Positions 30,524-46,810 of a DNA stretch of 64,000 nt are shown here, in pieces (within the stretch, counting starts at the first letter, position 1; each line of letters starts with the position of its first letter). Below the pieces are notes generated by a model. The model did not search any database. It had not been told where the DNA came from and saw nothing but the letters and a program-made list of their open reading frames with translations. Source of the DNA: Verrucomicrobia bacterium UBA2281 (lineage in GTDB: Bacteria; Verrucomicrobiota; Kiritimatiellia; CAIQIC01; Lenti-01); contig DDWR01000020.1 of the NCBI GenBank assembly GCA_002347655.1, forward strand, positions 76,155-140,154, written 5' to 3'. The position numbers were made by a program, and so were the translations under genes.

Positions 30524-30561
30524 CGAGGTCCGAGGTCGGAGGTCCGAGGTCGGAGGTCCGG
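30524..30561. repeat. tandem heptanucleotide array (SGAGGTC) x5 copies; upstream inverted partner of the array at 31001-31084
   Basis: cgaggtc cgaggtc ggaggtc cgaggtc ggaggtc cgg, read directly. It is the reverse complement of the GACCTCS units downstream of the enclosed gene. Confidence 0.8.
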
Positions 30562-30618
30562 AAGGCAGGGACAAGAGATGCGAGATCCGAAGCCCGCGGG
30601 CAATGAAAAGGAGCGCAA

Positions 30619-32827: not shown

Positions 32828-32857
32828 CACTATTTCCGACAATCTCGGGGCTTTAAA

Positions 32858-33460
32858 GTGTCACCGGTTTCCTGTCACCTGTCTCCTGGGCTCGGTCTTT
32901 TCCTCCACGCTTCCGCAGTGGCGTTGCCGGAGGGGGCGGTGCTGTTTCTCGGCCATTCCACGGCCGGAAAAAGCACGCTGGCGCGGAAAATGGGCGAACA
33001 GGTGCCGGTGCTGGCCGACGATTCCGTGTATGCCGCGCGGGATGCGGAGGGGCTCTGGCGGGTGGTCGACGGGGGCTTTCGCTTTGACCAGGGCTGGGGC
33101 ATGGCCGAATGGATGACCGATGTCCGGCGGCACTTCCAGGAGGGGCGCGGGGTCCCTGTGCGGAAGTGCTTTCGCATCCATCAAGCGCCCGCGGTGCGGA
33201 TCGAGCCGATGCCGCCGGTGCAACTGGGGAAGCACCTGATGGACGCCGCGATGGAAATCGACGTGCAACGGAAATTCGGCAGAATAGCCGCGGATCGACC
33301 GTCGGAACGCAATGTCTGGCAGGAAGTTGTGCAACAAAGGCGGCTTTGGTTCCGGCTGACCGCGGAATTGGCCCGCAGCTGCCCGGGAGGGCACCTTTGG
33401 TTCGCCAAAGAGACGCCGGCAAGTGAAGTGTTGGCGGCGGTCGCCCAGACGCAAGGTTGA
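32858..33460 (+). CDS. HprK-related P-loop kinase (HPr kinase C-terminal-domain-like)
   Basis: Walker A GHSTAGKST (..AVLFLGHSTAGKSTLARKMGE..), about 200 aa, which is the size of the HprK C-domain. GTG start 31 nt after the rSAM stop. Confidence 0.55.
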   Translation: MSPVSCHLSPGLGLFLHASAVALPEGAVLFLGHSTAGKSTLARKMGEQVPVLADDSVYAARDAEGLWRVVDGGFRFDQGWGMAEWMTDVRRHFQEGRGVPVRKCFRIHQAPAVRIEPMPPVQLGKHLMDAAMEIDVQRKFGRIAADRPSERNVWQEVVQQRRLWFRLTAELARSCPGGHLWFAKETPASEVLAAVAQTQG

Positions 33461-33816
33461 GGCGGTTTTTCCAAAAAATCGCAACAAATGACCTGTTCGG
33501 GGCTGAAAACGGCTCCATTCGGCTCTGAAAAGCTCTCCAACGGCGGAAATTTCATCGAAAACGGATCAATTTTCGTTCTGCGCGCCCAAAATTAGCGGAA
33601 AGAGCCCTCTTGCGCGCCTCTGTTAAGCTGAAATTGCAGAAAACTCCTTAAAAATCGCCCTAAAACGGCCCAAAGGGCCCGAAGTCTTAATCAAAACCAC
33701 ACACGAATATAATCTATATTTAATTGTGCATGATTTGCGCACATTCCTGTGGGAGAATATGATGTCGTTATCAATTGAAGAGAGTTTCGCCGTCTGCAAC
33801 AGGTTGCGCGGAAAGA
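33461..33816 (+). promoter_or_regulatory. unusually AT-rich 350-bp intergenic region; putative promoter/regulatory region of the giant gene
   Basis: Abrupt drop in GC (ttccaaaaaatcgcaacaaatg.., ..aatataatctatatttaattgtgcatgatttgcgcaca..). Contains direct repeats gctgaaaacggctcc / ctctgaaaagctctcc and an imperfect palindrome tgtgcatgatttgcgcaca just upstream of the start. Confidence 0.3.
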
Positions 33817-36800
33817 ATGAGAAAACGGTCCACATTTCGGATTGGGCGGTGTTCGTGGTGTGCGATGGCCGCGGCACTGGTTCTGGCTGGACCCGTGTGG
33901 GGTGGGAACCCGGACGGGGATCTGCGCGTCGAGATCATCACGGCCTACAATCTGGTGGTGGATTCCAACGCGGAGTCGCCCTCGACCTACGCGCCGAAAT
34001 CGGCCTACATCGGGGCGAAGTTCTGCAACGACGGCGCCAACGCGCTGACGAACGTCTGGGCGTACATCGGCGATCTGGACGCCGGGACGCCGGGGACCTA
34101 TCCGAGCCGGGCGCACCCGCCGCTGGTCGGTCCGCTGCCGGGCGGGGAATTCGCGCTGGTCCACGAGGGCGGCACGATGGGGGCGAACGACGCGACGCGC
34201 TACGTCGGCACCATCGAGCCGGGCGAATGCGTCACGGTCTATTGGCTCGTCAGCTATCCGCAGCTGGATGAAAACGGCGACGCGGTCTGGGGGCCCAGCA
34301 TCAAGCCCGACGACGACCTGTGGCTGGAGTACGACGTCTGGGCCACGGCCCGGGACGGCGGCGCCTATCTGCAGGCCGACGACTCGCGCACGCTGACCTG
34401 CCGCAACGAAATTTCCGCCATGGCCAACAAGATCTGGCCCAACGGCGCCAACAAGGTGCCCCAGGAATACAAGGATTTGCTGCAGCAGTACGCGCCGCTC
34501 TGGACGAACACGTCGGCCGTCGCCGAACCCGGCGCGATCCTGCGCACGGAAGGCATCTGGTACGATCTGGGCAACGTTGGCGACGGGTTCGACAACGACG
34601 GCGACCTGGTGCCGGACCGCAACGCGTGGCTCCAGCCCGTCGGCGATCCGGATCTGTTTGATCCGTCCTGCTTCCGGCTGGTGCGCACCTACGCGATGGT
34701 GATCGTGAAGCTCAACGACGGGACCGAGCAGGTCATCGTCGTGGAGGACCAGCTCTACTTCACCCAGATCCCCGCGAACAACCGCGGGGCGGTGGGCTAC
34801 GTGATGTACGAGTTCATTGCCATCGGGTCGGGCTGCGTCAGCACCCTGACGCCGTACCAGGAAGTGGCCTCGGGCTTCGACAACGAGAAGTTCAACGGCG
34901 ACTACGGCGCGCCGGGGCAGACCCTGACCGGCGGCACGTCGCTGCTGGCCATCGCGAAAACGGCGGACCCGACCCTGACGCGGCCGGGAAGCAACGTCGC
35001 CTATACGGTCACCTATACGAATTCGGGCCCGGATCCCTCCGGCCGGCCGGACATCGGCTTGCCGGTGGTGATCCAGGATGCCATCCCCACGGGCACGGTC
35101 TACGTGGCGGGCAGCGCGACGGCCGCCAACGTCCTGCCACAAGGCGTAGGCAGCTACACGGTCTATTTCTCGACGAACCACGGCCTGACCTGGTCCCTGA
35201 CGGAGCCGGCGATCGCCACCAACGTGACGGACGTGCAGTGGTGGCTGAGCGATCCGTTGCCGCCCGGCGGAACCGGCACCGTGAAGTTCTCCGTCACGGT
35301 CAAGAATCCCTGGCCTTACCCGAGCCCGGTCGTGCCGAACACCTCGGGACTGAGCTTCGGCAACACGACGCCGTTCCTGTGGGCGCACGCGCAGACGCTG
35401 CTGCTGGGCAACAACGCGCTGGGCGACACGGTCTGGCGCGACGACGGCGAAGGCGGCGGTCTGCTCGGCAACCAGCTTCAGGACGGCGGTGAAACCGGCA
35501 TCACCGGCGTGACGGTGCGCCTGTATTACGATCTGGACGGCGACGGCGGAGCCGACTATCTGTTCGCGACCACGAACACCGGCGCGAGCGGTTACTACAC
35601 CTTCACCAACCTGCCCGACGGCCATTTCGTCGTGGTCGTGGACGCCGCGGATCCGGACGTGCCGTTCGGCTACACGCCGACCACGCCGACGGCCTTTCCC
35701 ATTGCGCTCGATCCCGCGCGCACCAACGTCAATCCCGTCGTGGACTGGACCTCCGACTTCGGCTTCGCGCCGGCCCTGACGCTGGTGAAGACGTGGACCA
35801 GCACCAACGCCGTCCGCGAAGGCCAGTTGATCGGCTACAATCTGACGGTCTCCAACAGCCTGCCGGGCGACGGCACCGGTTCAGGTTCGCCGGCGACTTA
35901 TTTCGCCTGGGCGTCCACCGGTGGCGCCAACTATAAAAACACCGAATGGGTGGACTACTGGAACGCCTACACTCCCCCGGGGCCGGACGGCGTGTACTGT
36001 TCCAACCAGTTCGCGGGCCCGACGACGGTGCTCTCGCTCACCAACTTTACCGTCGGCGCGCAATTGGGGGAGGCGACCACCGTCTCGCTCGTGATTCCGA
36101 TCTTGATGGTTCCGCCCATCGGCGGCGACGACACGGTGACCATCGACGTCCGAACCAAGTCGCCCTCCGAGTCGCGCTTCACCGAGACGTATCTGGCGAC
36201 CAACCTCGTCAACGGCGTCTGGACGATTCCCATGACGGGCATTTACGATTGGGCCTGGGCGGACTTCGACACGAACGCCGTGGTGACGCTGACGGCCAAG
36301 AAGAACGCCGGCGGCACGGCCGGCGGCTGGATCCTGGTGGACGCGGTCGGGTTCAAGATCGAAAGCGACCAGACCGTCGGCGTGGCCGGCGGCACCACGA
36401 CGCTGGATCCGGTGCCCCTCGTGGACCGCTACGATCCGGCCCGCCTGCAGTTCGTGAGCGCCCAGCCGCCGGAGTCGCGCGTGGTCTCCAACGGCACCGG
36501 CACGATCTACTGGGACAACGTGGGGCCGATCTATCCCGGCGGCACCTCGACGGTGGCGGTGACGTTCAAGCTGCTCGAGCCGCCCAACAACACCAACGCC
36601 GTCGTCACGAATACCACCTGGGTCACCAACGCCTACTTCCAGGGCGGCGCGCAAGCCAACAACGCCACGAGCAGCGTGGTCGTCACGCAGTTTCCGGCCG
36701 CGACCGTCGGCGACTACGTCTGGCGCGACCTGGACGGCGACGGCATCCAGGACGCGGGCGAACCGGGCGTGCCCAACGTGGCCGTGTCCATCACGCCGCC

Positions 36801-39800
36801 GGCCGGCATCGACCTGGGGAACGGCCTTGGCGCGGCCATCACCAACTGGACGGACGAAAACGGCTACTACCTGTTCGAGTCGATCCCGACGACCGGGATC
36901 TACACGGTGCGGGTGGTGACGGCGACCCTGCCGGGCGGGACGGGCGTCAATACCTTCGACGAGGACGGCGTGCTGAACAGCCAGACCGCCGTCTACCTGG
37001 ACATCTACGCCAACGGCACGAACAACCTGCATCTGACGACCGATTTCGGCTACACCCTGCCCAGCACGATCGAAGGCACCATCTGGCACGATTATGATCG
37101 GGGGCAGGAAGCCTATCGCGAAGCCGGCGAGGACTGGATGACCAACGTGACGGTCTATCTGTGCGCCAGCCCGTCGCCCTGCGGCCCGGACGCGTCCATC
37201 GCCACCAACGTCACGACCACCAACGGCTATTTCCAGTTCACCGGCAACTTCATCGGCACCTACACCGTCTACGTTGCGACCAATTCCGGCATGCTCAGCA
37301 ACGGCTCGTGGAAGATCTCGTTCGACACGGACGGCACCAACACGCCGAATGTTGCCGCGGTGACGGTTCCGCTCGGCGGGACGGGGCGGGCGGACTTCAG
37401 CTACTTCCGCACCGGACCCTACCGGATCGGCGACACGGTGTTCTACGACTGGAACAGCGACGGCGTGCAGAACGTCGAATCCGAGGGCGGCATCTCCAAC
37501 GTCACGGTCTATCTCTACGAAGACGCCAACGGCAACGGCGTGGTGGACGCGGCGACCGACGCCTTCGTCGCCTCGACGGTCACCGCCACCAACGGCTACT
37601 ACCTGTTCACCAACCTGTTCGCGACGAACACCTACCTGGTGATCGTCGATCGGCAGGACCCCGACCTGCCGGCGAACTACATCGTGACCGCGGACCCCGA
37701 CGCCGTGAAGGACGCGCGCAGCGTCGTGACGATCGTCAACGCCGACGATTTCGACCAGGATTTCGGGTTCTGGCCCTACGGAAACGGCGCGATCGGCGAC
37801 ACGGTGTGGAAGGACGTGAACGCCGACGGGATCCAGCTGGGCTATCAGGAGCCGGGCATCGCCGGCGTGCGGGTCACGCTCTACTACGAAGCCAACGGAA
37901 CCTGGTGGCCGCTGCGGAGCATGGACACCGACGCCAACGGCATGTATCTCTTCGACTCCCTGCCGGACGGAAACTACCGGGTGGCGGTGGACGATGCGGA
38001 CGCCGACCTGCCGGTCGATGCCTTGGGCAACGCCTATTATCCGAGCACCCCCGTCTTCCACGACGCGACGATCAGCGGCGGCAACGTCTACCTGGACGCC
38101 GATTTCGGCTTCGCGCCCTACGGCGCGATCGGCGACACGGTCTTCTGGGACCTCAACCGCAACGGCGACCAGGACTTCAACGACCCCGGCGTGGCCGGCG
38201 TGGACGTTTACCTGTATGCCGACGCCAACGGCAACGGCATCTACGATGCGGGCGAAACGCTGGTGGCCACCGAAACCACCGACGCGACCGGGTTCTACGT
38301 GTTCTCCGGCCTGCTGCCGGACCGCTACGTCGTCGTGGTCGAAACGGCCAGCGGCCCGCTGGCCGGCACGGACCCGACCGCCGATCCGCAGTCGGACGGC
38401 CTGGCCTGCGACGATCCGCTCAACGTCGTGCCCTGCGACGACCAGTGCGGCTGGACGCTCGCGCCCGCGCAGATCTTCATGGGCGCGGACTTCGGCTATG
38501 CGCCGCGGGGCGTCATCGGCGACACGCTCTGGATCGATACCAACGGCAACGGCGTGCGCGACGAAAACGAACTCGGTATTCCGTACGTCGACGTGATCCT
38601 GTATTCCAACGGGGTGGCGATCGCCACAAACGCGACGGATGCCGACGGCTACTATGGCTTCAGCGGCCTGGTGGACTTCGCCAACTACGGCGTGCGGGTA
38701 GCGACCAACGACGTCGATTTCCCGGCCGGCCTGACGAACACCTGGACGGCGGACGGCACCTTCGACAACTACGCGACCAACATCGTGATGTCCGGCGGCG
38801 CCGTGACCTCGATCGGCGGCTATCCTTGCACGGACTGCGACCTGAACGTCGATTTCGGCTACCGCTACGCCGGCAACAACAGCCTGAGCGGCACGATCGG
38901 CCTCGACGCGCCGCCCTACGACGGCCTGATGAACGGCCTGAATCCGTCCGGTCCCGGCGCGGGCGAATCGCCCTATGCCGGCGTGCCGGTGACGCTCTAT
39001 CTCTGGAACGACGACGGCGACGGCATCCTCGAGGCCGGCGAAACCGTGCAGATCGGCACGAAGACCACCGATGCCAACGGGGATTACGCTTTCACGGGAT
39101 TGCCGAACGGCGACGGCAACGACAAGTACGTCGTGGCCAGCCCCGCGCCGGAAAGCTATCTGACGCTCACCACCACCAACGGCTCCATCGCCGGCGTGGC
39201 GGTGTTTTCGACGACCAATCTCCAGGGGTACGCCGTTTCCGCCCGGCTGGCGGTCGACGTCGCGGCGAACGTCACGAACATGGACTTTGCCTACGCCTCC
39301 CAGAAGGCCTACGACTACGGGGACCTGCCGGAGAGCTACAAGACGTTGCTGTCCGATGGCGCTCGGCACGTCGTGCCGCCGACGCCGAATCTCTATCTGG
39401 GCGCCGGCGTGGATACCGAACAGAACGGCGCACCTTCCACGGGCGCCGATGGCGACGATCTGGCCGGGACGGACGACGAGGACGGCGTGGTCCAGATCGT
39501 TTCGTCCACGTGGCGGACCGGCACGGCCGGCGGTTCCGTCGAAGTGACGGTGGGCGCGGGCAGCGGCTGGTTGCTGGGCTATATCGATTTCAACGGCGAC
39601 GGCGATTTCGTGGACGCCGGCGAAATGGTCTGCAACTTGGCGGTTTCGAACGCCGGCGGCAACGGGGTAGGAGTCTACACCAACGCGTTCACCGTGCCCG
39701 CCGGCACGTTCTCCGCGACCAGTTCCACGCCGCTCTACGCGCGCTTCCGGATTGTTCCGTCCCGGCCGCTGTTCCCCGAACTGGCCTATGCCGGCACGGC

Positions 39801-42800
39801 CGAAAACGGCGAAGTGGAGGATTATCTCTGGCATCTGGCCGGCCTGGGCGACTACGTCTGGTACGACGTGGACGGCGACGGCGTGCAGGACGCCGGCGAG
39901 CCGCCGATCGTCGGCGTGCGCGTGTTTGCCGACCTCAACGACGACGGCGTCTGGCAGACCACCGAACCTTCGGCGACAACCGATTCCAACGGGCTGTACG
40001 GCATCGGCGGACTGGTGCCGGGAACCTATTCCGTGCGGGTGGACACGAGCACGCTGCCGGCGGGCGTCACGCCGACCTACGACCTCGACGGCATCGGCAC
40101 GCCCCACCAAGCTTCGGCCGAAATCACGGCGCTCGACCAGTTCGTTGCCACCGTCGATTTCGGCTATGCTCCGCCGGTGAACATCGGCGATCGGGTGTGG
40201 TTCGACGCCAACCGCGACGGCATCCAGAACGCCAGCGAAACCAACGGGCTTTACGAAATCCCCGTCGCGTTGCTGGACACCAACGGGAACGTCGTGGCCG
40301 AAACGGCCACCGATTCTGAGGGCAACTACCTGTTCGCGAACATGCCGACCGGCACCTATCTGGTCCGGTTCGACCTGTCCGTCTTCACCACGAACGAAAT
40401 GCTCAGCCCGTCCAAGGTCGGCAGCGACGACGCCATCGACAACGATTGGGTTTCCGGCAACGCCAGCGACTACGCCTGGACGGCGCCGTTCTCCGTTTCG
40501 GGGGGCGAGGACTACCTGGACGTGGATCTCGGCGTGGCCACTCGTTCGCCGACGCGCGCCGAACTGGCCGAGGTCTGGGGCGAATGGGTGGAAAATGAAG
40601 GACGCGTGGTTTGGCGCACCGATGCGGAATACAGCACGGCCGGATTCTTCGTCTATCGCGTCGATCCGGAAACCGGCGCGGAATCGCGGTTGAACGAGCG
40701 ATTGGCGCTTTCCGCGTTCAACGAAGGCGGCGCGACCTACGCGCTGGCCGATCCCGCGGCGCGCGCCGGCGAGGAACGGACCTATCGCCTGGAAGAAGTC
40801 GAATTGTCCGGCGAACGCCGCGACCTGGGCACGCGCGAAATTCGTTTTGCAGAACCGGCTGAACCCACCGCGGTTTCCCGCTCGGCGCTGGCGGCGCCAC
40901 CCGCGAAAAAATCCGTTCGCCCCAAGGGCCTGGCGGGTCCGTCCGCGGTGCTGAAGGTTCACGTGGGCCGGGAGGGCCTCTATGGCTTGGGTTGGTCGGC
41001 CATCGCGGACGGCATGGGACTCGCGCCGGCGGACGTGCAGGCGCTGGCCGAAGCGGGTTCGCTGAAGATCGCGCGCCAAGGCGAACCCGTGCCGACGCTC
41101 GTCGATGCGGCGCGCGAACGGCTGCTCTTCCATGCGCGGCCACCGGTGCGCACCTGGTACGCGCACGACGACGTCTATCTGGTATCGGTCGGTGACGGGC
41201 TGCCGATGGTGCGGCGCGATCCAGGCGCGGTGGCCGGAACGACGGCCTTTCCGACGACGCTCCGCTTCGAAGAAAACAGATTCCTGTTCAGCATGAACCG
41301 CATGCCCGCCGATTTCTACTTCTGGATTCCGGTCATGAGCGGCTACGGGGAGCTGTCGGTGACCAACGTGCCGCTGGATCTGGGCGGCTATGCGGGCGGC
41401 GACGTGGCGCTGACCGTGCGCCTGATGGGCTGGTCCAGCTCGACCAATCATCCCGACCATCTGGCGCGGTTCGCCTTCAACGGCGTCGAACTGGGCGAGA
41501 TGTCCTTCGACGGGCAGGAGGTGGCCGAGGCCCATTTGGCGGTGCCGGCGTCCATCGTGTCGAACGGCGTCAATACCTTTGCGATCGAAGGGGTGCTGCA
41601 AGCCGGCCGCAGCGACAGCTTCTTCGTGGTGGATTGGGTGGATGCCTCGTTTGTCCGGACGCTGGCGCCCGAAACGATTCCCGCCGCGTTCGGCGCGAAC
41701 GGAGCCGCCGCGGTTTCCGCGCAGGCCTTCGCCGAACCGATCGCCGTGGCCGTGGACGAGATGGGCAACCCGACCTGGATTGCCGCCGAAAACGGGGAAT
41801 TGCCGACCAAAGCGTGGGCCGTCGCCTCGCCGACCGAACGGTATGCGGTCGTCGCGGCCGACGCGCTGCCGATGCTGGCGCCCGAGCCGGCCGCGGCGGA
41901 CGCCTGGTTCCTCTCGGCCGAAAACCAAATCGATTACCTGGTGATTGCCTCCCGCGACTTGGCCGCGGCGGCGCAGGAACTCGTGGATTATCGCGCGGGG
42001 CAGGGGCTGCGCGCCGGCTTGGCGACGTTCGAAGACGCCTGCGATTTGCTGACGGGCGGCGTGCGGACGCCGGAGGCCGTTCCGGCTCTGCTGAAGCGTG
42101 CCGCGGCGACCTGGGCGGTCGCGCCGCGGATGGTCGTGCTGGCCGGCAGCGGGCACTACGACTACCTGGGCATCAACTATGCCGAACCCAACCATCTGCC
42201 GCCGCTGCTGGTCCAGATGCCGGCCGGCGTGTGCGCTTCGGACGGCTTGCTGGCCGATACGGGCGGCGACGAACTGCCGGATCTCGCGATCGGGCGGTTG
42301 CCCGCGCTGACCGCCGCGGAACTGACCGCCATGATTGCGAAGATCAAGGCCTACGAAGCGGGCTTCGGCTCCGCATGGCAGAACCAACTCGTGCTGGCGG
42401 CGGACAACGCCGACGCGGCGGGTCCGTTCCTGGCGGCGAACCAGCGGTTGGCGGATTTGGTGGAAACGCCCTATGCGGTGGCCGAACGGATCGAACTGGA
42501 TTCGATGGCATTCGGCTTGGCGCGCACGAATCTCTTGCGCTGGTTCAACGTCGGCGCGGGCTTCATCAACTACGTCGGCCATGGCGACATCAAGAATCTC
42601 GCGTCGGAAAAGTGGCTGAAGGATACCGACGTGGCGGCGATGGTGAACACCTCCCGGCCGCCGGTGGTGGCCACGCTGACCTGCCTGGCGGCGCGGTACG
42701 AAGTGCCCGCCGTGCATAGCCTCGGCGAGCGCCTGCTGCGGCAAGCCGGCGGCGGCGCCGTCGCGGTGCTGGGTCCCTCCGGCCTTTCGCAGAACGCCCC

Positions 42801-44436
42801 GGCGACGGAACTGGGCGAGGCTTTCTACCGGGCGGTCCTGCAGGACGGCGCGGGCGAGCTGGGGCCGGCGTTCCTGAAAGCCCGCCGTTCCCTGCCGGCC
42901 ACGCTGTTCACGAAGGACACGATCGCGGTCTACAATCTGCTCGGCGATCCGGCGCTGAAGATCGCGGGCAACGACCCGGCGGACGAACCCGTTGCGCCGG
43001 CGCAGGTCATCCTCGCGGGGCTTGCGCAGACCTTCGACGGCACGCCGCGCGCCGCCGCCGCGACCACGGTTCCGGCGGGCCTCGCCGTCCGCATTTCCTA
43101 CGCCGGACAGTTGTCGGCGCCGACCGCGGCCGGCACCTATGCCGTGTGCGCGGCCGTGGCCACCGTGGGCTACGAAGGCTTCGCCACCGGCACCCTGACG
43201 GTGGCCCGGGCGCCGGCCGCCGTGACGCTCTCCGGACTGGAACAGGTTTACGACGGTACGCCGCGCGCCGCCGCCGCGACCACGGTGCCGGCCGGATTGG
43301 GGCTTGAATGGACCTATGCCGGCGATCCGAAGCCGCCGGTCGCGGCCGGAACGCATGAAGTCGTCGCGACGGTGGCGGACGCCAACTACTCCGGCGCGGC
43401 AACCGGCACGCTGGTGGTGGCCCAGGCGCCGGCCGCGGTGACGCTCGCGGACTTGGAACAGGTCTACGACGGTACGCCGCGCGCCGCCGCCGCGACCACG
43501 GTTCCGGCCGGCCTAACGGTCGCGTGGACCTATGACGGCGATCCGGAACCGCCGGTCGCGGCCGGCACCTATGAAGTCGTCGCGACCGTGGCCGAGGCCA
43601 ACTATTCCGGCGCGGTCACGGGACTCCTGACGCTGGCCCGGAAACCGGCCGGCATCGTGCTGGGCAACTTGCAGCAAACCTGCGACGGCACGCCGCGGCA
43701 CGCGACCGCGACTACCGACCCGGCCCACTTGGCCGTGGACTTCACCTACGACGGTCGGCCGCTGGCCCCGACGACAGCCGGCAGCTATGCCGTCGTTGCC
43801 GCGATCGGCGATGCGAACCATGCCGGCGGCGCCACGGGCACGCTCGTGGTTGCGCGCGGCGTCGCGGAAGTCGCGCTCCGCGACCTCGCGCACGTGTACG
43901 ACGGGGCGCCCAAATGCGCGGCGGCGACGACTCGGCCGGCCGGCCTGCCGGTGCGGGTGACCTACGATGGATGGGACGCTCCGCCGTCGGCCGCCGGCAC
44001 CTACGAAGTCGTCGCCACCGTCGTGGATGAAAATTTCACGGGTTCCGCCACGGGCACGCTGGCCATCTTGGAGATCGTCGATCCGTTCGAGCGCTGGCTG
44101 GAAACCCAAAGCCTGGATCCGCTGGACGTCCGCATGGCCTGGGACGAGGATGGCGACGGCGATGGGCAAACCACCTGGGAAGAATATTTGGCCGATACCG
44201 ATCCGGCGGATTCCGAAGTTCTCTTCGCGGTCGAGGGGTACTATGCCGAAGACACCAAGGCGATCCACCTGACGTTCCCGGCCAGTCCAAACCGCTACTA
44301 CCAACTCGAGTATTCGACCAACCTGTTTGCCCCCACCCGGGTCCTCGATCTGGGGTGGGGCACCACCGGCTATTTTGCCACGAACGCTCCCGGCCAATGG
44401 TTTGGAACGATCCGGGTCCGGATGGATCCACCTTAG
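33817..44436 (+). CDS. giant secreted multidomain surface protein (about 3,540 aa): signal peptide, DUF11 domain, about 20 SdrD-B-like Ca-binding beta-sandwich repeats, GEVED domain, peptidase-C25 (gingipain)-like domain, six MBG repeats, conserved C-terminal module
   Basis: ATG 33817 (MRKRSTFRIGRCSWCAMAAALVLAGPVWG, signal-like); the track starts at TTG 33775. Repeated GDTVW(R/K)D.N.(N/D)G.QD..E.G..GV.V.LY....G......T.TD..G.Y.F..L..G.Y.V units. ENGEVEDY. HG/Cys motifs of C25 (..INYVGHGDIKNL.., ..ATLTCLAARYE..). (YDGTPR..AAGTYEVVATV..NY.G.ATGTL)x6. Confidence 0.8.
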   Translation: MRKRSTFRIGRCSWCAMAAALVLAGPVWGGNPDGDLRVEIITAYNLVVDSNAESPSTYAPKSAYIGAKFCNDGANALTNVWAYIGDLDAGTPGTYPSRAHPPLVGPLPGGEFALVHEGGTMGANDATRYVGTIEPGECVTVYWLVSYPQLDENGDAVWGPSIKPDDDLWLEYDVWATARDGGAYLQADDSRTLTCRNEISAMANKIWPNGANKVPQEYKDLLQQYAPLWTNTSAVAEPGAILRTEGIWYDLGNVGDGFDNDGDLVPDRNAWLQPVGDPDLFDPSCFRLVRTYAMVIVKLNDGTEQVIVVEDQLYFTQIPANNRGAVGYVMYEFIAIGSGCVSTLTPYQEVASGFDNEKFNGDYGAPGQTLTGGTSLLAIAKTADPTLTRPGSNVAYTVTYTNSGPDPSGRPDIGLPVVIQDAIPTGTVYVAGSATAANVLPQGVGSYTVYFSTNHGLTWSLTEPAIATNVTDVQWWLSDPLPPGGTGTVKFSVTVKNPWPYPSPVVPNTSGLSFGNTTPFLWAHAQTLLLGNNALGDTVWRDDGEGGGLLGNQLQDGGETGITGVTVRLYYDLDGDGGADYLFATTNTGASGYYTFTNLPDGHFVVVVDAADPDVPFGYTPTTPTAFPIALDPARTNVNPVVDWTSDFGFAPALTLVKTWTSTNAVREGQLIGYNLTVSNSLPGDGTGSGSPATYFAWASTGGANYKNTEWVDYWNAYTPPGPDGVYCSNQFAGPTTVLSLTNFTVGAQLGEATTVSLVIPILMVPPIGGDDTVTIDVRTKSPSESRFTETYLATNLVNGVWTIPMTGIYDWAWADFDTNAVVTLTAKKNAGGTAGGWILVDAVGFKIESDQTVGVAGGTTTLDPVPLVDRYDPARLQFVSAQPPESRVVSNGTGTIYWDNVGPIYPGGTSTVAVTFKLLEPPNNTNAVVTNTTWVTNAYFQGGAQANNATSSVVVTQFPAATVGDYVWRDLDGDGIQDAGEPGVPNVAVSITPPAGIDLGNGLGAAITNWTDENGYYLFESIPTTGIYTVRVVTATLPGGTGVNTFDEDGVLNSQTAVYLDIYANGTNNLHLTTDFGYTLPSTIEGTIWHDYDRGQEAYREAGEDWMTNVTVYLCASPSPCGPDASIATNVTTTNGYFQFTGNFIGTYTVYVATNSGMLSNGSWKISFDTDGTNTPNVAAVTVPLGGTGRADFSYFRTGPYRIGDTVFYDWNSDGVQNVESEGGISNVTVYLYEDANGNGVVDAATDAFVASTVTATNGYYLFTNLFATNTYLVIVDRQDPDLPANYIVTADPDAVKDARSVVTIVNADDFDQDFGFWPYGNGAIGDTVWKDVNADGIQLGYQEPGIAGVRVTLYYEANGTWWPLRSMDTDANGMYLFDSLPDGNYRVAVDDADADLPVDALGNAYYPSTPVFHDATISGGNVYLDADFGFAPYGAIGDTVFWDLNRNGDQDFNDPGVAGVDVYLYADANGNGIYDAGETLVATETTDATGFYVFSGLLPDRYVVVVETASGPLAGTDPTADPQSDGLACDDPLNVVPCDDQCGWTLAPAQIFMGADFGYAPRGVIGDTLWIDTNGNGVRDENELGIPYVDVILYSNGVAIATNATDADGYYGFSGLVDFANYGVRVATNDVDFPAGLTNTWTADGTFDNYATNIVMSGGAVTSIGGYPCTDCDLNVDFGYRYAGNNSLSGTIGLDAPPYDGLMNGLNPSGPGAGESPYAGVPVTLYLWNDDGDGILEAGETVQIGTKTTDANGDYAFTGLPNGDGNDKYVVASPAPESYLTLTTTNGSIAGVAVFSTTNLQGYAVSARLAVDVAANVTNMDFAYASQKAYDYGDLPESYKTLLSDGARHVVPPTPNLYLGAGVDTEQNGAPSTGADGDDLAGTDDEDGVVQIVSSTWRTGTAGGSVEVTVGAGSGWLLGYIDFNGDGDFVDAGEMVCNLAVSNAGGNGVGVYTNAFTVPAGTFSATSSTPLYARFRIVPSRPLFPELAYAGTAENGEVEDYLWHLAGLGDYVWYDVDGDGVQDAGEPPIVGVRVFADLNDDGVWQTTEPSATTDSNGLYGIGGLVPGTYSVRVDTSTLPAGVTPTYDLDGIGTPHQASAEITALDQFVATVDFGYAPPVNIGDRVWFDANRDGIQNASETNGLYEIPVALLDTNGNVVAETATDSEGNYLFANMPTGTYLVRFDLSVFTTNEMLSPSKVGSDDAIDNDWVSGNASDYAWTAPFSVSGGEDYLDVDLGVATRSPTRAELAEVWGEWVENEGRVVWRTDAEYSTAGFFVYRVDPETGAESRLNERLALSAFNEGGATYALADPAARAGEERTYRLEEVELSGERRDLGTREIRFAEPAEPTAVSRSALAAPPAKKSVRPKGLAGPSAVLKVHVGREGLYGLGWSAIADGMGLAPADVQALAEAGSLKIARQGEPVPTLVDAARERLLFHARPPVRTWYAHDDVYLVSVGDGLPMVRRDPGAVAGTTAFPTTLRFEENRFLFSMNRMPADFYFWIPVMSGYGELSVTNVPLDLGGYAGGDVALTVRLMGWSSSTNHPDHLARFAFNGVELGEMSFDGQEVAEAHLAVPASIVSNGVNTFAIEGVLQAGRSDSFFVVDWVDASFVRTLAPETIPAAFGANGAAAVSAQAFAEPIAVAVDEMGNPTWIAAENGELPTKAWAVASPTERYAVVAADALPMLAPEPAAADAWFLSAENQIDYLVIASRDLAAAAQELVDYRAGQGLRAGLATFEDACDLLTGGVRTPEAVPALLKRAAATWAVAPRMVVLAGSGHYDYLGINYAEPNHLPPLLVQMPAGVCASDGLLADTGGDELPDLAIGRLPALTAAELTAMIAKIKAYEAGFGSAWQNQLVLAADNADAAGPFLAANQRLADLVETPYAVAERIELDSMAFGLARTNLLRWFNVGAGFINYVGHGDIKNLASEKWLKDTDVAAMVNTSRPPVVATLTCLAARYEVPAVHSLGERLLRQAGGGAVAVLGPSGLSQNAPATELGEAFYRAVLQDGAGELGPAFLKARRSLPATLFTKDTIAVYNLLGDPALKIAGNDPADEPVAPAQVILAGLAQTFDGTPRAAAATTVPAGLAVRISYAGQLSAPTAAGTYAVCAAVATVGYEGFATGTLTVARAPAAVTLSGLEQVYDGTPRAAAATTVPAGLGLEWTYAGDPKPPVAAGTHEVVATVADANYSGAATGTLVVAQAPAAVTLADLEQVYDGTPRAAAATTVPAGLTVAWTYDGDPEPPVAAGTYEVVATVAEANYSGAVTGLLTLARKPAGIVLGNLQQTCDGTPRHATATTDPAHLAVDFTYDGRPLAPTTAGSYAVVAAIGDANHAGGATGTLVVARGVAEVALRDLAHVYDGAPKCAAATTRPAGLPVRVTYDGWDAPPSAAGTYEVVATVVDENFTGSATGTLAILEIVDPFERWLETQSLDPLDVRMAWDEDGDGDGQTTWEEYLADTDPADSEVLFAVEGYYAEDTKAIHLTFPASPNRYYQLEYSTNLFAPTRVLDLGWGTTGYFATNAPGQWFGTIRVRMDPP

Positions 44437-44491
44437 GATTGCGCCGGCGAGGGAACCTGCTAGGATAACGCCAGAACCGAAGGAGTTTCCG

Positions 44492-44899
44492 ATGTCCGAA
44501 AACAAGCGGCTGAAATACGAAAAACCGATGAGCATCGACTTGGGCCGGGTGGCGCCGATCTTGGGCGACACCTGCAGCGTCGGCAACGGCGCCGCGGATT
44601 GTCCCGCCGGCATGAACAACGCGACGGTGGCGGTGTGCGATCCTTCGGGGTCCGGCGCCGACAACGATTGCCGCACCGGATCGAACGCCGGTACGTTCTG
44701 CTGGCCGACCGGTTCCGGGGCCGTGGTGTATTGTTTGGCGGGTTCCGGGTTCGGGGCGAGTTCGCGGAGCATGCCCGAGCCGACTTCCTCCGGCTATGAT
44801 TCGCCCGACAGCGGCGGGAGCGACCCCTATTCTACGACGTTGCCCGGCAGCGAACCTTCCTCGCCGGACAGCGGTGGAGATCGCTCTTCGGGGCTGTAG
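44492..44899 (+). CDS. candidate RiPP precursor: small Cys-rich peptide with a leader-like N-terminus (KYEKPMSIDLG) and a Ser/Pro/Gly-rich C-terminal tail
   Basis: AAGGAG 7 nt upstream of ATG 44492. 135 aa with no Sec-type hydrophobic signal. Six Cys at about 10-12-residue spacing, each in a Gly/Ser-rich context (CSVGNGAADCPAGMNNATVAVCDPSGSGADNDCRTGSNAGTFCWPTGSGAVVYC). Tail is ..SSGYDSPDSGGSDPYSTTLPGSEPSSPDSGG.. Confidence 0.5.
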   Translation: MSENKRLKYEKPMSIDLGRVAPILGDTCSVGNGAADCPAGMNNATVAVCDPSGSGADNDCRTGSNAGTFCWPTGSGAVVYCLAGSGFGASSRSMPEPTSSGYDSPDSGGSDPYSTTLPGSEPSSPDSGGDRSSGL

Positions 44900-44954
44900 G
44901 CATTTGCGCCGGCGCGCGAGCGATGGGCGCTGGACCAGGATCGGGAGCGCGGCC

Positions 44955-45575
44955 ATGGATCCGAAACGGAATCCACCGGATGAGCCCCTCCGCCGTCGCC
45001 TGTCCCGAATCTCGGCCCCTTGCCGCGGCCACAGCATGCGCGGAACCTTGGCGGAAGGGGACGGCGTGCAGATCGCTTCCGTTCCCTATGATTTGCTCCG
45101 CCGGGGCGACGTGGTGGCCTACCGTTCCGGCGATCAGTTGGTCTTGCATCGGATCGTCGGTCGCCGGGGCGGGTATTGGCGTACGCAAGGCGACGGCAAC
45201 TGGCGGCAGGACGCCGCTCCGCTTGCGCCGGAACGGTTCATCGGAGTCGTGACCGCGCGCGAACGGAACGGTACGACGTCGGTCGTGACGGGCGGCGCCG
45301 CCGGCGCCCGGCGGGCGGCCGGGCTGCATGTCTGGGCCTTCGTGCGCTGGTCGGCATTGACGACGTTCGCGCCGCTGTATCGCCTGCTCCGCGCCAGCCG
45401 AGCGGTTGCGCTGGTCTGGCGACCCCGAATTTTGGCCGTGCGTTTCGCCGCGCCCGGGGGGGCGGTCACCAAGTTCGTCCATCGCGGGCGCTCCGTGGCC
45501 CAATGGGTTCCGCAGGCCGATCGCTGGACGTGCCGGAAGCCCTACGATCTGTTGCTGTCGCGGCCGGGCCGATGA
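44955..45575 (+). CDS. S24/S26-family serine peptidase (signal-peptidase-I-like; possible leader peptidase)
   Basis: ..CRGHSMRGTLAEGDGV.. (Ser nucleophile box), ..RRGDVVAY.., ..LHRIVGRRGG.., ..TQGDGNW.. No obvious N-terminal TM anchor. Start choice (ATG 44955) uncertain; the in-frame ORF opens at 44796. Confidence 0.5.
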   Translation: MDPKRNPPDEPLRRRLSRISAPCRGHSMRGTLAEGDGVQIASVPYDLLRRGDVVAYRSGDQLVLHRIVGRRGGYWRTQGDGNWRQDAAPLAPERFIGVVTARERNGTTSVVTGGAAGARRAAGLHVWAFVRWSALTTFAPLYRLLRASRAVALVWRPRILAVRFAAPGGAVTKFVHRGRSVAQWVPQADRWTCRKPYDLLLSRPGR

Positions 45576-46810
45576 GCCCGGCCCTTCCGCCCGCCGGGCC
45601 GTCCGGCGCTGAAATGAACCTGCTGTGCGCCTGCGCGAGTCCGGCCTATGCCGCGCAAACGGCGGAGTTCTTTGACCGCGGCGGCTCGGTTTCCTGGCCC
45701 CGGTTCGTGGCCTTGGCGACCAACCACCACTTGCTGCCGCTGGTCCACCGCGCGCTCAAAGCCGTTCCGGAACGCGTGCCGGCCCAGTGGTTGGCCCGGT
45801 TGCGGGAATCGCAGACCGCCATCGCGGCCCATAACCTCCGGGCGTGCGCCACGTTGCGGCGGCTGCAGAAACGGTTGGAAGCGGATGGAAACCGGCTGGT
45901 CCCCGTCAAGGGGCCGGCCTTGGCGCTGCTGGCCTTTGGCGACGTCGCGCTGCGCCAGTTCGAGGATCTGGATCTGATCGTGCGCCGGGCCGAGCTGCTG
46001 CGGGTCGTCGCCATCCTCGAACAGGAAGGTTTCCGTCTGCGGGAACTGGCCGCCGGCGTCGATCGCGCCCGCTATCTGGAAACGCTGCAAAACTGGTCGC
46101 TGGAAAAGCCGGGCTTTCCCCCGCTCGATCTCAAGCCGGTGCTCATTTCCCATGCGCTGTGCGGGCCGGCTTCCGCCGATTTCATGGCGGCCGCTTGCCG
46201 CCAAATTCCAAACGCCGCGTTTCCTGGCCTGTCGGCTCCCGGTCCGGCCGAGATGCTGCTGGCGGTCTGCCTCGATGGGGCCAACGAAATGTGGATCAAG
46301 CTTTCGGCGGTGGCCGACGTCGGGGCGTTGATCGCGAAGCATGCGGACGTGGACTGGGCGCGGTATTTGGCCGAAGCCAAACGCCTAGGGCACCGGCGCA
46401 GCCTGCTGGTCGGGGCGGCCCTTGCCGAAGACCTGCTGGGCGCGGTTCTGCCGGCGGCCTTTCGTGAAGGCCTTCGCAACGACCCGGCGGCCCGGCGATT
46501 GGCGGAGCAGGTGGCCGCCCGCCTGCGGTCCGCGGCGCCCCGGCAGAACCTTGCTTTTCGCCAGAGCGTGTTTGCGCTTCGGACGCGGGAACGGTTCCGC
46601 GATCGGTGGCGGTTCCTCCGGCGGCTGCTGTTCGTGCCGGGCGCCTATGAATTCACCCGTTGGCCTTGGCCGCGCGCGCTGCAGCCGCTGTATTCGCTGG
46701 TCCGGCCGCTTCGATTGGCCTGGACCGTCGCGGTGCGCGGGGGCCGGGCCGATCGATTGACGGTTTTGCCGGCGCATGCGAAATTGGCGCCCGGCGGAAG
46801 CAACCCATGA
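45572..46810 (+). CDS. nucleotidyltransferase-family protein (NTP_transf_5 / PF14907-like, the kind associated with lasso-peptide and HprK-related peptide-modification loci)
   Basis: ATGA overlap at 45572. ..LVPVKGPALALLAFGDVALRQFEDLDLIV.. (nucleotidyltransferase core). 412 aa. Confidence 0.55.
   Translation: MSPALPPAGPSGAEMNLLCACASPAYAAQTAEFFDRGGSVSWPRFVALATNHHLLPLVHRALKAVPERVPAQWLARLRESQTAIAAHNLRACATLRRLQKRLEADGNRLVPVKGPALALLAFGDVALRQFEDLDLIVRRAELLRVVAILEQEGFRLRELAAGVDRARYLETLQNWSLEKPGFPPLDLKPVLISHALCGPASADFMAAACRQIPNAAFPGLSAPGPAEMLLAVCLDGANEMWIKLSAVADVGALIAKHADVDWARYLAEAKRLGHRRSLLVGAALAEDLLGAVLPAAFREGLRNDPAARRLAEQVAARLRSAAPRQNLAFRQSVFALRTRERFRDRWRFLRRLLFVPGAYEFTRWPWPRALQPLYSLVRPLRLAWTVAVRGGRADRLTVLPAHAKLAPGGSNP

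What the first reader, a model, noticed from the sequence alone, without database searches (positions are those of the whole stretch)
32858..46810. HprK-like Ser kinase paired with NTP_transf_5 nucleotidyltransferase as tailoring enzymes
The Walker-A kinase (GHSTAGKST, HPr-kinase C-domain size) and the PF14907-like nucleotidyltransferase are encoded 12 kb apart, but both flank the giant gene and the precursor. In lasso-peptide systems, HprK homologues phosphorylate the precursor's C-terminal Ser and NTP_transf_5 proteins co-occur. Here they are combined with rSAM chemistry instead of a lasso cyclase, which would be a new combination of known tailoring steps.
Basis: inference. Interest (0 to 1): 0.6.

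Follow-up and report, generated by a model that had tools for sequence, protein, structure and literature searches.

The report
Kinase-like and nucleotidyltransferase genes in peptide cassette
Both genes are real and belong to a widespread but never-characterised gene cassette that modifies and exports a small cysteine-rich peptide; pairing the kinase-like protein with radical-SAM enzymes is already catalogued, but its chemistry is untested.

Summary
Both observed genes are confirmed. 32858-33460 encodes a 200-aa P-loop protein with an HprK/PEPCK-type fold. HprK's catalytic His, Walker A and Asp-Asp motifs are conserved. 45572-46810 encodes a PF14907 nucleotidyltransferase with an invariant DxD.

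The rSAM pairing is not a new combination. The locus is a divergent SynChlorMet (SCM) cassette (NCBIfam ScmC-F) and the P-loop protein is its ScmC component (Pfam PF27840 on homologs). ScmC is a core gene. In 27 genome loci from several phyla the order is ScmE-PqqD-ScmF-ScmC, followed directly by the precursor wherever no giant gene intervenes. The nucleotidyltransferase is a frequent accessory: present in all 7 Kiritimatiellia-type and 6 other loci, absent from 5 Aminicenantes/Clostridia loci.

Natural fusions tie both to the peptide: PqqD::ScmC, and S26-peptidase::NTP_transf_5. The latter mirrors the protease-N-transporter layout of lasso clusters.

The lasso rule of a C-terminal Ser target fails here (0 of 99 precursors end in Ser). 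The variable tail is also dispensable.

Most likely mechanism, inferred: leader-guided phosphorylation by ScmC, then decoration by the nucleotidyltransferase. This is a new variant of a known kind, of moderate interest.

The parts
27185..29086 (+). CapD/PglF-like nucleotide-sugar dehydratase, last gene of the upstream polysaccharide locus. Its stop overlaps the ScmE start by 4 nt.
   Evidence: Pfam families Polysacc_synt_2/Epimerase on orthologs; ATGA overlap; conserved upstream of ScmE in Kiritimatiellia and in L024-L026.
29083..30507 (+). ScmE-type maturase: N-terminal PqqD/RRE domain plus radical SAM plus SPASM.
   Evidence: TIGR04250 404.3 bits, cut-off 400; PF05402, PF04055, PF13186.
30999..31631 (+). 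Stand-alone PqqD-family (RRE) protein, ScmD-like. The first ~25 residues are translated heptamer-repeat DNA.
   Evidence: PF05402 E 1.1e-16; TIGR04248 42.9 bits, below cut-off 100.
31628..32827 (+). ScmF-type radical SAM/SPASM maturase.
   Evidence: TIGR04251 331.2 bits, best hit but below cut-off 400; PF04055, PF13186.
32858..33460 (+). Short ScmC-family P-loop protein with an HprK/PEPCK-type fold: the 'kinase' of the finding. Invariant residues are H17, G32-T40 (Walker A), D54, D55, R106, D129, E133, D135, Q137, R138.
33775..44436 (+). 3553-aa surface-type protein (10 SdrD_B repeats, GEVED, Peptidase_C25, 5 MBG_3). A lineage-specific insertion between ScmC and the precursor.
   Evidence: Pfam. 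Present at this position in Kiritimatiellia-type loci and absent in L020-L032, where the precursor follows ScmC directly.
44492..44899 (+). Candidate precursor peptide (135 aa): leader KYEKPxSIDxGRVAPILGD, a six-Cys core of C-x-x-G-x-x-A modules, and a variable S/T/P/D/E tail.
   Evidence: 99 homologs with 71-100% identity over the first 88 aa; the family is found next to ScmC in other phyla.
44955..45575 (+). S26-type (Ser/His) signal-peptidase-like protein, the probable leader peptidase. Motifs GHSMRGTL, LHRIVG and QGDGN are conserved across phyla.
   Evidence: TIGR02228 E 7.6e-9, sub-threshold; motif alignment; natural fusions to NTP_transf_5.
45572..46810 (+). PF14907 (NTP_transf_5) nucleotidyltransferase with invariant G114-P115 and D132-x-D134. 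It has 4-nt overlaps with both neighbours.
46807..48606 (+). ABC exporter (fused permease/ATPase, MsbA-like).
   Evidence: conserved after NTP5.
48679..50010 (+). Outer-membrane beta-barrel (BBP2_2), conserved downstream.
   Evidence: PF10082.
50024..50584 (+). Conserved 186-aa protein of unknown function that closes the block.
   Evidence: Ortholog in L004 at 182 bits; genes of 177-199 aa at the same position in L004, L036 and L037.

Best explanation
The two genes are components of one peptide-maturation and export system, a divergent SynChlorMet-type cassette.

Upstream module (CapD-ScmE-PqqD-ScmF-ScmC): two radical-SAM/SPASM enzymes cross-link a six-Cys precursor. ScmC is a 200-aa enzyme with the HprK/PEPCK fold and HprK's His, Walker-A and Asp-Asp catalytic set. 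It is recruited to the leader-bound peptide through a PqqD/RRE domain and uses ATP to phosphorylate a hydroxyl of the precursor. The best-conserved candidate is the Ser that follows the first core Cys, not the C-terminus.

Downstream module (precursor-S26-NTP_transf_5-ABC, then an outer-membrane barrel): the S26 Ser/His peptidase removes the leader. The PF14907 nucleotidyltransferase works with it and decorates the peptide. By analogy with PsmN, it probably adds a sugar or nucleotide-derived group onto the phosphate. The ABC exporter then secretes the product.

Shown here: folds, catalytic motifs, family assignments, synteny, fusions.
Inferred: the peptide as substrate (strongly, from the fusions), phosphorylation and phosphate decoration (by analogy only), and the order of steps.
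For: ScmC fold and motifs. AF2 model pLDDT 87.7. The top 11 Foldseek PDB hits are all HprK/P (E 7e-5 to 9e-4), followed by PEPCK. hhalign to a verified HprK C-domain gives 79.8% probability, E 1.5e-5, and aligns His17, G32-S39 and D54-D55 with HprK's His, GxSGxGKS and ADD. 25 of 29 family members hit PF07475 below threshold, best E 3.6e-6.

Cassette identity. ScmE passes its equivalog cut-off, and ScmF, ScmD and ScmC are the best hits for their genes. Homologs carry PF27840 'ScmC'.

Synteny. ScmE-PqqD-ScmF-ScmC holds in 27 genome loci. The precursor lies directly after ScmC in delta-proteobacterial, Victivallales, CSSED10-310, Aminicenantes and Clostridia loci.

Peptide as ScmC's substrate. 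Natural fusions exist: PqqD-PqqD-ScmC (P0340, P0344) and PqqD-ScmC (P0356, P0442). P0340 sits between an ScmE-like rSAM and a KYEKP-leader precursor.

NTP5. PF14907 E 2.8e-42. D132 and D134 are invariant. The NTase fold matches MenT1, ANT(2'')-Ia (5cfs, 4xje), LnuA and FKRP. 5cfs and 4xje are the same templates used for PsmN, whose D134A/D136A mutant is dead (PMC6993621). ATGA overlaps join S26->NTP5->ABC. The same order is seen in L004, L036, L037, L039, L041, L042 and L023. Seven homolog clusters are S26::NTP_transf_5 fusions, paralleling the lasso B2-N fusions and the psmB2-psmN-psmD order (PMC8498205).

Co-occurrence. Nine ScmC/NTP5 homolog pairs share the same longest-contig length.
Against: No biochemical data exist for any SCM cassette.

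Homology to HprK is confined to about 46 residues plus overall fold. TM-scores are only 0.34-0.48, and a profile search of PDB sequences is not significant for HprK (E 0.7). ScmC could therefore be an ATPase or another kind of phosphotransferase.

No conserved C-terminal Ser is present in this lineage.

NTP5 is missing from 5 Aminicenantes/Clostridia cassettes that keep ScmC, so the two are not an obligate pair.

Remoter PF14907 homologs sit in a pure glycosyltransferase locus (L005). In L024-L026 one copy lies between CapD and ScmE.

PsmN's own chemistry is not settled in vitro (PMC6993621).
Confidence: 0.55

Rival explanations
1. ScmC is not a tailoring kinase. It is an obligatory ATP-using partner of the rSAM chemistry, for example an ATPase or chaperone that loads or releases the leader-bound peptide, or a phosphotransferase that activates a residue transiently with no phosphate left in the product.
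For: ScmC is as invariant in the cassette as the two rSAM enzymes and is always adjacent to ScmF or the precursor. In L043 the PqqD::ScmC fusion replaces the separate PqqD and ScmF genes next to a single rSAM. The C-terminal half, with the invariant DAAMEIDxQRK motif, has no HprK counterpart.
Against: The full HprK catalytic triad of motifs (His, Walker A, DD) is invariant. The only characterised RiPP-associated HprK homologs are true peptide Ser kinases (PMC8498205). A PF14907 partner, which in pseudomycoidin needs the phosphate, recurs with the cassette.
Confidence: 0.2
2. The PF14907 protein serves the surrounding exopolysaccharide pathway rather than the peptide, for example by transferring a phospho-sugar or phospho-alcohol onto a glycan as LicD/FKRP-type NTase-fold enzymes do. 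Its position near the precursor would then reflect only shared export.
For: The window lies in a large EPS locus of glycosyltransferases, flippase-like protein, deacetylase, Bac_transf, DegT and CapD. PF14907 paralogs occur in a pure glycosyltransferase locus, L005, and between CapD and ScmE in L024-L026. In L021 the NTP5 gene is followed by LytR_cpsA_psr, BBP2_2 and Wza-like genes. FKRP is among the structural matches.
Against: S26::NTP_transf_5 fusions exist in 7 clusters. NTP5 is translationally coupled to S26 and ABC. In L041/L042 the precursor-S26-NTP5-ABC block stands alone among housekeeping genes, with no sugar genes in the 9.5 kb visible upstream.
Confidence: 0.18
3. The genes are ordinary housekeeping or toxin-antitoxin genes: a bona fide HprK/P for carbon catabolite control, and an MntA- or MenT-like nucleotidyltransferase of a toxin-antitoxin pair.
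For: The best structural match of the NTP5 model is the MenT1 toxin, E 3e-4. The P-loop protein gives weak hits to HprK models.
Against: The P-loop protein is 200 aa with no HprK N-terminal domain. It gives no TIGR00679 hit, and its PF07475 score is 11.5 bits against a cut-off of 33.3. NTP5 is 412 aa and sits between a peptidase and an ABC exporter with 4-nt overlaps. It has no antitoxin or HEPN neighbour, and this context is conserved. The window's real MntA/HepT pair is at 26056-26710.
Confidence: 0.03

Closest known systems
SynChlorMet (SCM) cassette: NCBIfam/TIGRFAMs TIGR04248 ScmD, TIGR04249 ScmC, TIGR04250 ScmE, TIGR04251 ScmF; Pfam PF27840 ScmC
   Same: Two rSAM/SPASM enzymes, a PqqD-family protein and an HprK-related P-loop protein are encoded together. 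ScmE passes its equivalog cut-off, and ScmF, ScmD and ScmC are each the best hit for their gene. Homologs of the P-loop protein carry PF27840.
   Different: ScmF, ScmD and ScmC score below the equivalog cut-offs. ScmC here is about 200 aa and matches only positions 125-241 of the 292-position model, so it lacks the N-terminal third. The cassette additionally carries a conserved KYEKP-leader Cys-rich precursor, an S26 peptidase, PF14907, an ABC exporter and an outer-membrane barrel, and it is embedded in an EPS locus. No publication on the SCM cassette was found.
Kinase/nucleotidyltransferase (K/N) tailoring pair of Firmicutes lasso peptides: PadeK (paeninodin) and PsmK/PsmN (pseudomycoidin)
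   Same: An HprK-superfamily enzyme is paired with an 'uncharacterised nucleotidyltransferase' that has a catalytic DxD. The N gene lies between the leader protease and the ABC exporter, and protease::N fusions occur. The same ANT(2'') structural relatives are found.
   Different: There is no lasso cyclase or B1/B2 here; the core chemistry is rSAM/SPASM. The precursor does not end in Ser. ScmC is a core gene, not optional. The protease is S26-type rather than a transglutaminase-like B2. Direct sequence comparison with PsmK, PsmN or PadeK could not be made.
HPr kinase/phosphorylase (HprK/P; PF07475, TIGR00679)
   Same: The fold of the P-loop core and the His / GxSxxGKS / DD motifs.
   Different: No N-terminal domain, no HPr, and all scores below family thresholds. 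The C-terminal half differs, with its own invariant DAAMEIDxQRK motif.
rSAM/SPASM thioether RiPPs (sactipeptides and ranthipeptides, e.g. PapB, AlbA, StsB maturases)
   Same: A multi-Cys precursor with a leader, RRE-containing rSAM/SPASM maturases and an ABC exporter. Distant hits to PapB, AlbA and StsB models.
   Different: The type of cross-link is untested. The precursor core is hyper-conserved rather than variable. A P-loop enzyme and an NTase are added.

Membership tests
SynChlorMet cassette (NCBIfam equivalogs) | ScmE radical SAM/SPASM protein at or above the TIGR04250 cut-off (400 bits) | tested here: met
   404.3 bits for 29083-30507.
SynChlorMet cassette (NCBIfam equivalogs) | ScmF radical SAM/SPASM protein at or above the TIGR04251 cut-off (400 bits) | tested here: not met
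   331.2 bits. It is the best hit by about 200 bits but below the cut-off.
SynChlorMet cassette (NCBIfam equivalogs) | ScmD PqqD-related protein at or above the TIGR04248 cut-off (100 bits) | tested here: not met
   42.9 bits, best hit. PF05402 PqqD is significant.
SynChlorMet cassette (NCBIfam equivalogs) | ScmC at or above the TIGR04249 cut-off (125 bits) | tested here: not met
   24.3 bits, E 1.7e-5, covering profile positions 125-241 of 292. Relatives in five other phyla also score only 20-50 bits. Homologs at 72-75% identity do carry Pfam PF27840 'ScmC'. That model is not in the local Pfam copy, so the window protein itself could not be scored.
HprK/PEPCK-fold P-loop superfamily | Fold similarity plus a collinear His / Walker A / Asp-Asp catalytic set | tested here: met
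   Foldseek probability 1.00, E 7e-5, with top hits HprK/P then PEPCK. hhalign 79.8% probability over 46 columns that include all three motifs.
Bona fide HPr kinase/phosphorylase | Two-domain protein of about 310 aa above the PF07475/TIGR00679 thresholds, with an HPr substrate gene | tested here: not met
   200 aa. PF07475 11.5 bits against a cut-off of 33.3. No TIGR00679 hit. No HPr-like ORF in the window.
PF14907 NTP_transf_5 | Score above the Pfam gathering threshold, with the NTase G-x and DxD motifs | tested here: met
   145.4 bits against 31.2. G114, P115, D132 and D134 are invariant in 26 sequences. NTase-fold matches.
Lasso-type K/N tailoring pair | N gene between leader protease and ABC exporter; protease::N fusions occur | tested here: met
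   S26-NTP5-ABC with 4-nt overlaps. Seven S26::NTP5 fusion clusters. Literature description in PMC8498205 and PMC6993621.
Lasso-type K/N tailoring pair | Precursor ends in the Ser that is phosphorylated | tested here: not met
   0 of 99 Kiritimatiellia precursors end in Ser; the ends are P 33, F 25, Q 12 and others. Precursors of four non-PVC lineages (L025/26, L028-30, L031, L032) do end in Ser.
Lasso-type K/N tailoring pair | Lasso cyclase (Asn-synthetase-like C) and B1/B2 in the cluster | tested here: not met
   No such family appears among the Pfam or NCBIfam assignments of the window genes that were scanned. The region 3639-7824 and the short ORF 2-382 were not scanned.
Lasso-type K/N tailoring pair | Kinase and NTase orthologous to PadeK/PsmK and PsmN | not testable with these tools
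   Those sequences could not be retrieved. Only shared family names and structural templates could be compared.
MntA-type antitoxin (NTP_transf_2 + HEPN/HepT) | Small NTase of about 100-140 aa with an adjacent HEPN toxin | tested here: not met
   45572-46810 is 412 aa, belongs to PF14907 and has no HEPN neighbour. The window's MntA/HepT pair is 26056-26391 (PF01909) plus 26384-26710 (RNxxxH motif).

The most novel reading that the evidence does not exclude
The product is not an antibiotic-type RiPP. It is a hyper-conserved, thioether-cross-linked phosphopeptide that is physically coupled to the cell's exopolysaccharide system. ScmC installs a phosphate on the peptide. The PF14907 enzyme then transfers a sugar, supplied by the translationally coupled CapD/DegT/Bac_transf pathway, onto that phosphate. 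This would make an exported peptide-phospho-glycan conjugate, acting as a primer, anchor or capping unit of the polymer.

The reading would explain three observations. The precursor core is more conserved (most homologs 72-94% identity) than its enzymes (45-80%). The NTP5-containing form of the cassette sits next to polysaccharide genes in the Kiritimatiellia-type loci, L021, L024 and L025/26. A BBP2_2 barrel, and in L021 also LCP and Wza genes, follow the cassette.
Probability: 0.12. Interest if true: 0.8.

Novelty: new variant of a known kind. Interest (0 to 1): 0.5.

Why it matters
Phosphorylation is rare in ribosomal peptide natural products. A November 2025 survey (PMC12639078) lists only microcin C, two lasso peptides, phospeptin, salivaricin 10, micropeptin T20 (plus the alkaloid guanitoxin), and the cyanobactins that the paper itself reports. 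None of these is a radical-SAM class.

The SCM cassette has existed for years only as database models, with no known product. This analysis shows a short-ScmC form of it that is widespread: 221 clusters at 50% identity at E<=1e-10, with cassette loci assigned to about nine taxonomic groups. Fusion evidence indicates that the HprK-like enzyme acts on the leader-bound peptide and that the PF14907 enzyme works with the leader peptidase.

That turns an anonymous annotation into a testable pathway. It also gives PF14907, a large family with a single partly characterised member (PsmN), a second tractable system. The consistent embedding in polysaccharide loci hints at a physiological rather than antibiotic role.

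Tried and rejected
1. A profile of the ScmC family against PDB sequences was not significant for HprK (E 0.7, rank about 12). The relationship needed hhalign and fold comparison.
2. C-terminal Ser as the phosphorylation site was rejected for this lineage: 0 of 99 precursors end in Ser.
3. The S/T/P-rich tail as the obligatory NTP5 substrate was rejected. Across phyla, NTP5-positive loci tend to have longer tails. However, tail-less 88-96-aa Kiritimatiellia precursors keep S26-NTP5-ABC.
4. I first took the 522-570-aa NTP5 homologs for over-extended gene calls like ORF 45176-46810. They are real S26::NTP5 fusions.
5. Promoter and terminator scans were at background levels and uninformative.
6. 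Literature searches for SynChlorMet, ScmC/E/F, the TIGR numbers, and 'radical SAM + HPr kinase + RiPP' found nothing relevant.
It was rerun with alignment A3.


Full report
**Observation**

The window is about 67% G+C and almost all genes are on the + strand.
- ORF 32858-33460 (GTG start, 200 aa) carries GHSTAGKST at residues 32-40.
- ORF 45572-46810 (412 aa; the mechanical ORF from 45176 is over-extended) is PF14907 NTP_transf_5 at 145 bits, E 2.8e-42.
- The two genes lie 12.1 kb apart and bracket a 3553-aa gene (33775-44436) and a 135-aa Cys-rich ORF (44492-44899).

The public gene call for the P-loop protein (P0001, 173 aa) starts 27 codons too late and removes a family-invariant His. Homolog N-termini support the 32858 start.

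**What the locus is**

NCBIfam assigns the neighbouring genes to the SynChlorMet (SCM) cassette:

| Gene | Model | Score | Cut-off |
|---|---|---|---|
| 29083-30507 | ScmE, TIGR04250 | 404 bits | 400 (passes) |
| 31628-32827 | ScmF, TIGR04251 | 331 bits | 400 (best hit, below) |
| 30999-31631 | PqqD/ScmD-like | 42.9 bits | 100 (below) |
| 32858-33460 (P-loop) | ScmC, TIGR04249 | 24.3 bits, E 1.7e-5 | 125 (below) |

The P-loop protein's only other named relative is HprK-related kinase B (E 0.004). Its homologs at 72-75% identity carry the newer Pfam family PF27840 'ScmC'.

Downstream of the precursor lie an S26-type peptidase-like gene (44955-45575), the PF14907 gene, an MsbA-like ABC exporter, a BBP2_2 outer-membrane barrel and a conserved 186-aa protein. 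Upstream is a large polysaccharide locus: a flippase-like protein, several GT1/GT4 glycosyltransferases, an acyltransferase, a deacetylase, Bac_transf, DegT and CapD.

Start and stop codons overlap by 4 nt at CapD/ScmE, 4HB/PqqD, PqqD/ScmF, S26/NTP5 and NTP5/ABC.

**Is the P-loop protein HprK-like?**

Sequence profiles alone are weak. HprK appears at E 0.7 against PDB sequences. PF07475 is hit below threshold by 25 of 29 family members, best E 3.6e-6.

Structure and profile-profile comparison are clearer.
- The AF2 model has pLDDT 87.7.
- The 11 best Foldseek PDB hits are all HprK/P (E 7e-5 to 9e-4, probability 1.0), followed by PEPCK, which shares the fold. TM-scores are modest at 0.34-0.48.
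- hhalign against a B. subtilis HprK C-domain gives 79.8% probability, E 1.5e-5 over 46 columns. It aligns His17, Walker A 32-39 and D54-D55 with HprK's His, GxSGxGKS and ADD.
- All these residues are invariant in the family.

It is not a bona fide HprK/P. It has no N-terminal domain, no above-threshold hit, no HPr-like ORF in the window, and a C-terminal half of its own with an invariant DAAMEIDxQRK motif.

**Conservation of context**

A scan of 185,579 species genomes gave 30 loci. Twenty-seven of them have ScmE-PqqD-ScmF-ScmC in that order.

In Kiritimatiellia/PVC MAGs a giant SdrD_B/Peptidase_C25 gene follows ScmC. In delta-proteobacterial (L020, L021), Victivallales (L023), CSSED10-310 (L024), unclassified (L025/26), Aminicenantes (L028, L029, L031) and Clostridia (L030, L032) loci, a homologous precursor follows ScmC directly, and an S26-like gene and an ABC exporter are encoded nearby. 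So the giant gene is a lineage-specific insertion, and ScmC is a core cassette gene next to the precursor.

An exhaustive HMM search finds 36, 221 and 7494 clusters (50% identity) at E<=1e-30, 1e-10 and 1e-3. Nearly all are 165-230 aa.

**The nucleotidyltransferase is an accessory, but recurrent**

- It follows S26 in all seven Kiritimatiellia-type loci where the downstream region is visible: the window, L004, L036, L037, L039, L041 and L042.
- Nine ScmC/NTP5 homolog pairs share the same longest-contig length.
- An HMM also finds PF14907 genes in L020, L021, L023, L024, L025 (two copies) and L026 (two copies). It finds none in the five Aminicenantes/Clostridia loci.
- More distant paralogs (about 35% identity) occur in a pure glycosyltransferase locus (L005).

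**Fusions link both enzymes to the peptide**

1. The longer ScmC relatives are PqqD-PqqD-ScmC (P0340, P0344) or PqqD-ScmC (P0356, P0442) fusions. P0340 lies between an ScmE-like rSAM and an 84-aa KYEKP-leader, multi-Cys peptide. PqqD domains are the leader-recognition elements of RiPP pathways, so ScmC most likely works on the leader-bound precursor.
2. Seven NTP5 homolog clusters of 522-570 aa are S26::NTP_transf_5 fusions (E 1e-29 to 1e-38 to the window's S26 protein).
   - The S26 protein keeps the Ser box (GHSMRGTL), the His box (LHRIVG) and GDGN across phyla. This fits an ER/archaeal-type Ser/His signal peptidase acting as leader peptidase (my inference).
   - The arrangement matches what is described for lasso clusters. 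There psmN lies between protease psmB2 and transporter psmD, and N is sometimes fused to B2 (PMC8498205; PMC6993621).
   - The NTP5 model (pLDDT 88.3) matches MenT1, ANT(2'')-Ia (5cfs, 4xje), LnuA and FKRP. 5cfs and 4xje are the templates reported for PsmN.
   - PsmN's essential D134/D136 correspond in kind to the invariant D132/D134 here.

**The precursor**

The family has a conserved leader (KYEKPxSIDxGRVAPILGD) and six C-x-x-G-x-x-A-type modules. Among 99 Kiritimatiellia sequences, most are 72-94% identical to the window's over the first 88 residues. That is more conserved than ScmC (45-75%) or NTP5 (46-80%).

The C-terminal tail is variable, rich in S/T/P/D/E and 0-65 aa long. It ends in recurring ...GTAFP...PGAF or ...SLGQ motifs. 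None of the 99 ends in Ser. Tail-less precursors still have S26-NTP5-ABC. So neither the lasso rule (C-terminal Ser) nor the proposed tail-peptide substrate transfers to this system.

The best-conserved hydroxyl residue across phyla is the Ser after the first core Cys. Precursors of four non-PVC lineages do end in Ser.

**Mechanism proposed**

Shown here: families, folds, catalytic motifs, synteny and fusions.

Inferred:
- ScmC phosphorylates a precursor hydroxyl in an RRE-dependent way.
- The rSAM/SPASM pair makes Cys cross-links.
- S26 removes the leader.
- PF14907 decorates the phosphopeptide as PsmN does (hexose on phosphate).
- The ABC exporter and the outer-membrane barrel export the product.

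I put 0.55 on this overall. That both genes belong to the peptide pathway is more likely, at about 0.75. The specific chemistry is less certain, at about 0.35-0.4.

Rivals:
- ScmC is a non-tailoring ATP-using partner of the rSAM step (0.2).
- NTP5 serves the polysaccharide pathway (0.18).
- The genes are housekeeping HprK or a toxin-antitoxin NTase (0.03). A genuine MntA/HepT pair sits at 26056-26710, not here.

**Comparison with what is known, and novelty**

Pairing an HprK-like protein with rSAM/SPASM and PqqD genes is the catalogued SCM cassette, so it is not a new combination. No paper on that cassette was found. A 2025 list of phosphorylated RiPPs contains no rSAM class (PMC12639078).

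The window's system is a divergent form. Three of the four equivalog cut-offs are missed, ScmC is short, and the cassette has an added S26/PF14907/ABC module. It is also embedded in polysaccharide loci in several lineages. I rate it a new variant of a known kind, interest 0.5.

The most novel reading not excluded is a peptide-phospho-glycan conjugate tied to exopolysaccharide production (probability about 0.12).

Noticed in passing
window 26056-26710: A MntA/HepT-type toxin-antitoxin pair is inserted between DegT and CapD. It consists of an NTP_transf_2 protein (PF01909, E 3.8e-14) whose gene overlaps by 8 nt a DUF86/HEPN-like ORF with an RNRLIHGY motif. It is absent from the orthologous position in L001 and L003, which have an unrelated gene of about 125 aa there.
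   Followed up: partly
window 30524-31084: The four-helix-bundle / 23S-rRNA-IVS-protein gene (30619-31002) is flanked by inverted arrays of GAGGTCC/GAGGTCG heptamers (30524-30565 against 30994-31084, up to 100% complementary over 28 nt). The downstream array is translated as the TSDLRPR repeats at the N-terminus of the PqqD protein. The gene is present at this site in some related loci (L003, L006, L008, L015-L017, L019) and absent in others (L001, L007, L009, L010, L014). It looks like a small mobile insertion.
   Followed up: partly
window 32780-32900; L018 9570-9905: The ScmF/ScmC junction carries opposed heptamer runs, (GGGGACA)n upstream and (TGTCNCC)n downstream, around a spacer of about 40 nt with no gene. 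They are translated into the ScmF C-terminus and the ScmC N-terminus (SPVSCHLSP). In L018 an ORF with only a borderline match to the four-helix-bundle protein (E about 1e-4, 21 bits) sits at this junction. The site may therefore be an empty or excised insertion site. The repeat finder reported no inverted pair at its thresholds.
   Followed up: partly
window 44756-44899; proteins P0220-P0318: The precursor tails are hypervariable in sequence and length (0-65 aa) but end in a few recurring motifs: ...GGGTAFP (33 of 99 end in P), ...PGAF (25 end in F) and ...SLGQ (12 end in Q). This suggests a C-terminal recognition or sorting signal of unknown function.
   Followed up: partly
window 33775-44436; L034 10377-19181; L035 15082-17055: The giant SdrD_B/GEVED/Peptidase_C25/MBG_3 protein lies between ScmC and the precursor only in the PVC-group loci. 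However, Peptidase_C25-containing giant ORFs also lie next to distant ScmC-like genes in Korobacteraceae (Acidobacteriota). This hints at a recurrent functional link between the cassette and a C25 protease-bearing surface protein.
   Followed up: no
L038 3405-10267: A tail-less 88-aa precursor follows a different giant protein (CARDB, MBG_3, F5_F8_type_C; no C25 listed). Housekeeping genes lie upstream and no rSAM cassette is seen within 10 kb. The giant gene plus precursor can therefore be separated from ScmE-C. In L041/L042 the precursor-S26-NTP5-ABC block likewise stands alone.
   Followed up: partly
L021 8356-12392: In a delta-proteobacterial locus the cassette with PF14907 is followed by LytR_cpsA_psr (LCP), a BBP2_2 barrel and a Wza-like Poly_export/SLBB gene. 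Bac_transf/DegT/CapD precede the cassette in L024-L026. Sugar and EPS genes were seen only next to PF14907-containing cassettes. The sample is small and not corrected for phylogeny.
   Followed up: partly
window 53566-62226: A second giant ORF (2886 aa, GC3 0.91) has an N-terminal alpha-amylase catalytic domain and a bacterial TSP3 repeat. It is otherwise unannotated.
   Followed up: no
window 32858-33460 versus P0001: The public JGI gene call for the ScmC homolog starts at an internal GTG (173 aa). It loses the conserved GLFLHAS segment that contains the putative catalytic His, which may explain why no Pfam domain is recorded for it.
   Followed up: yes
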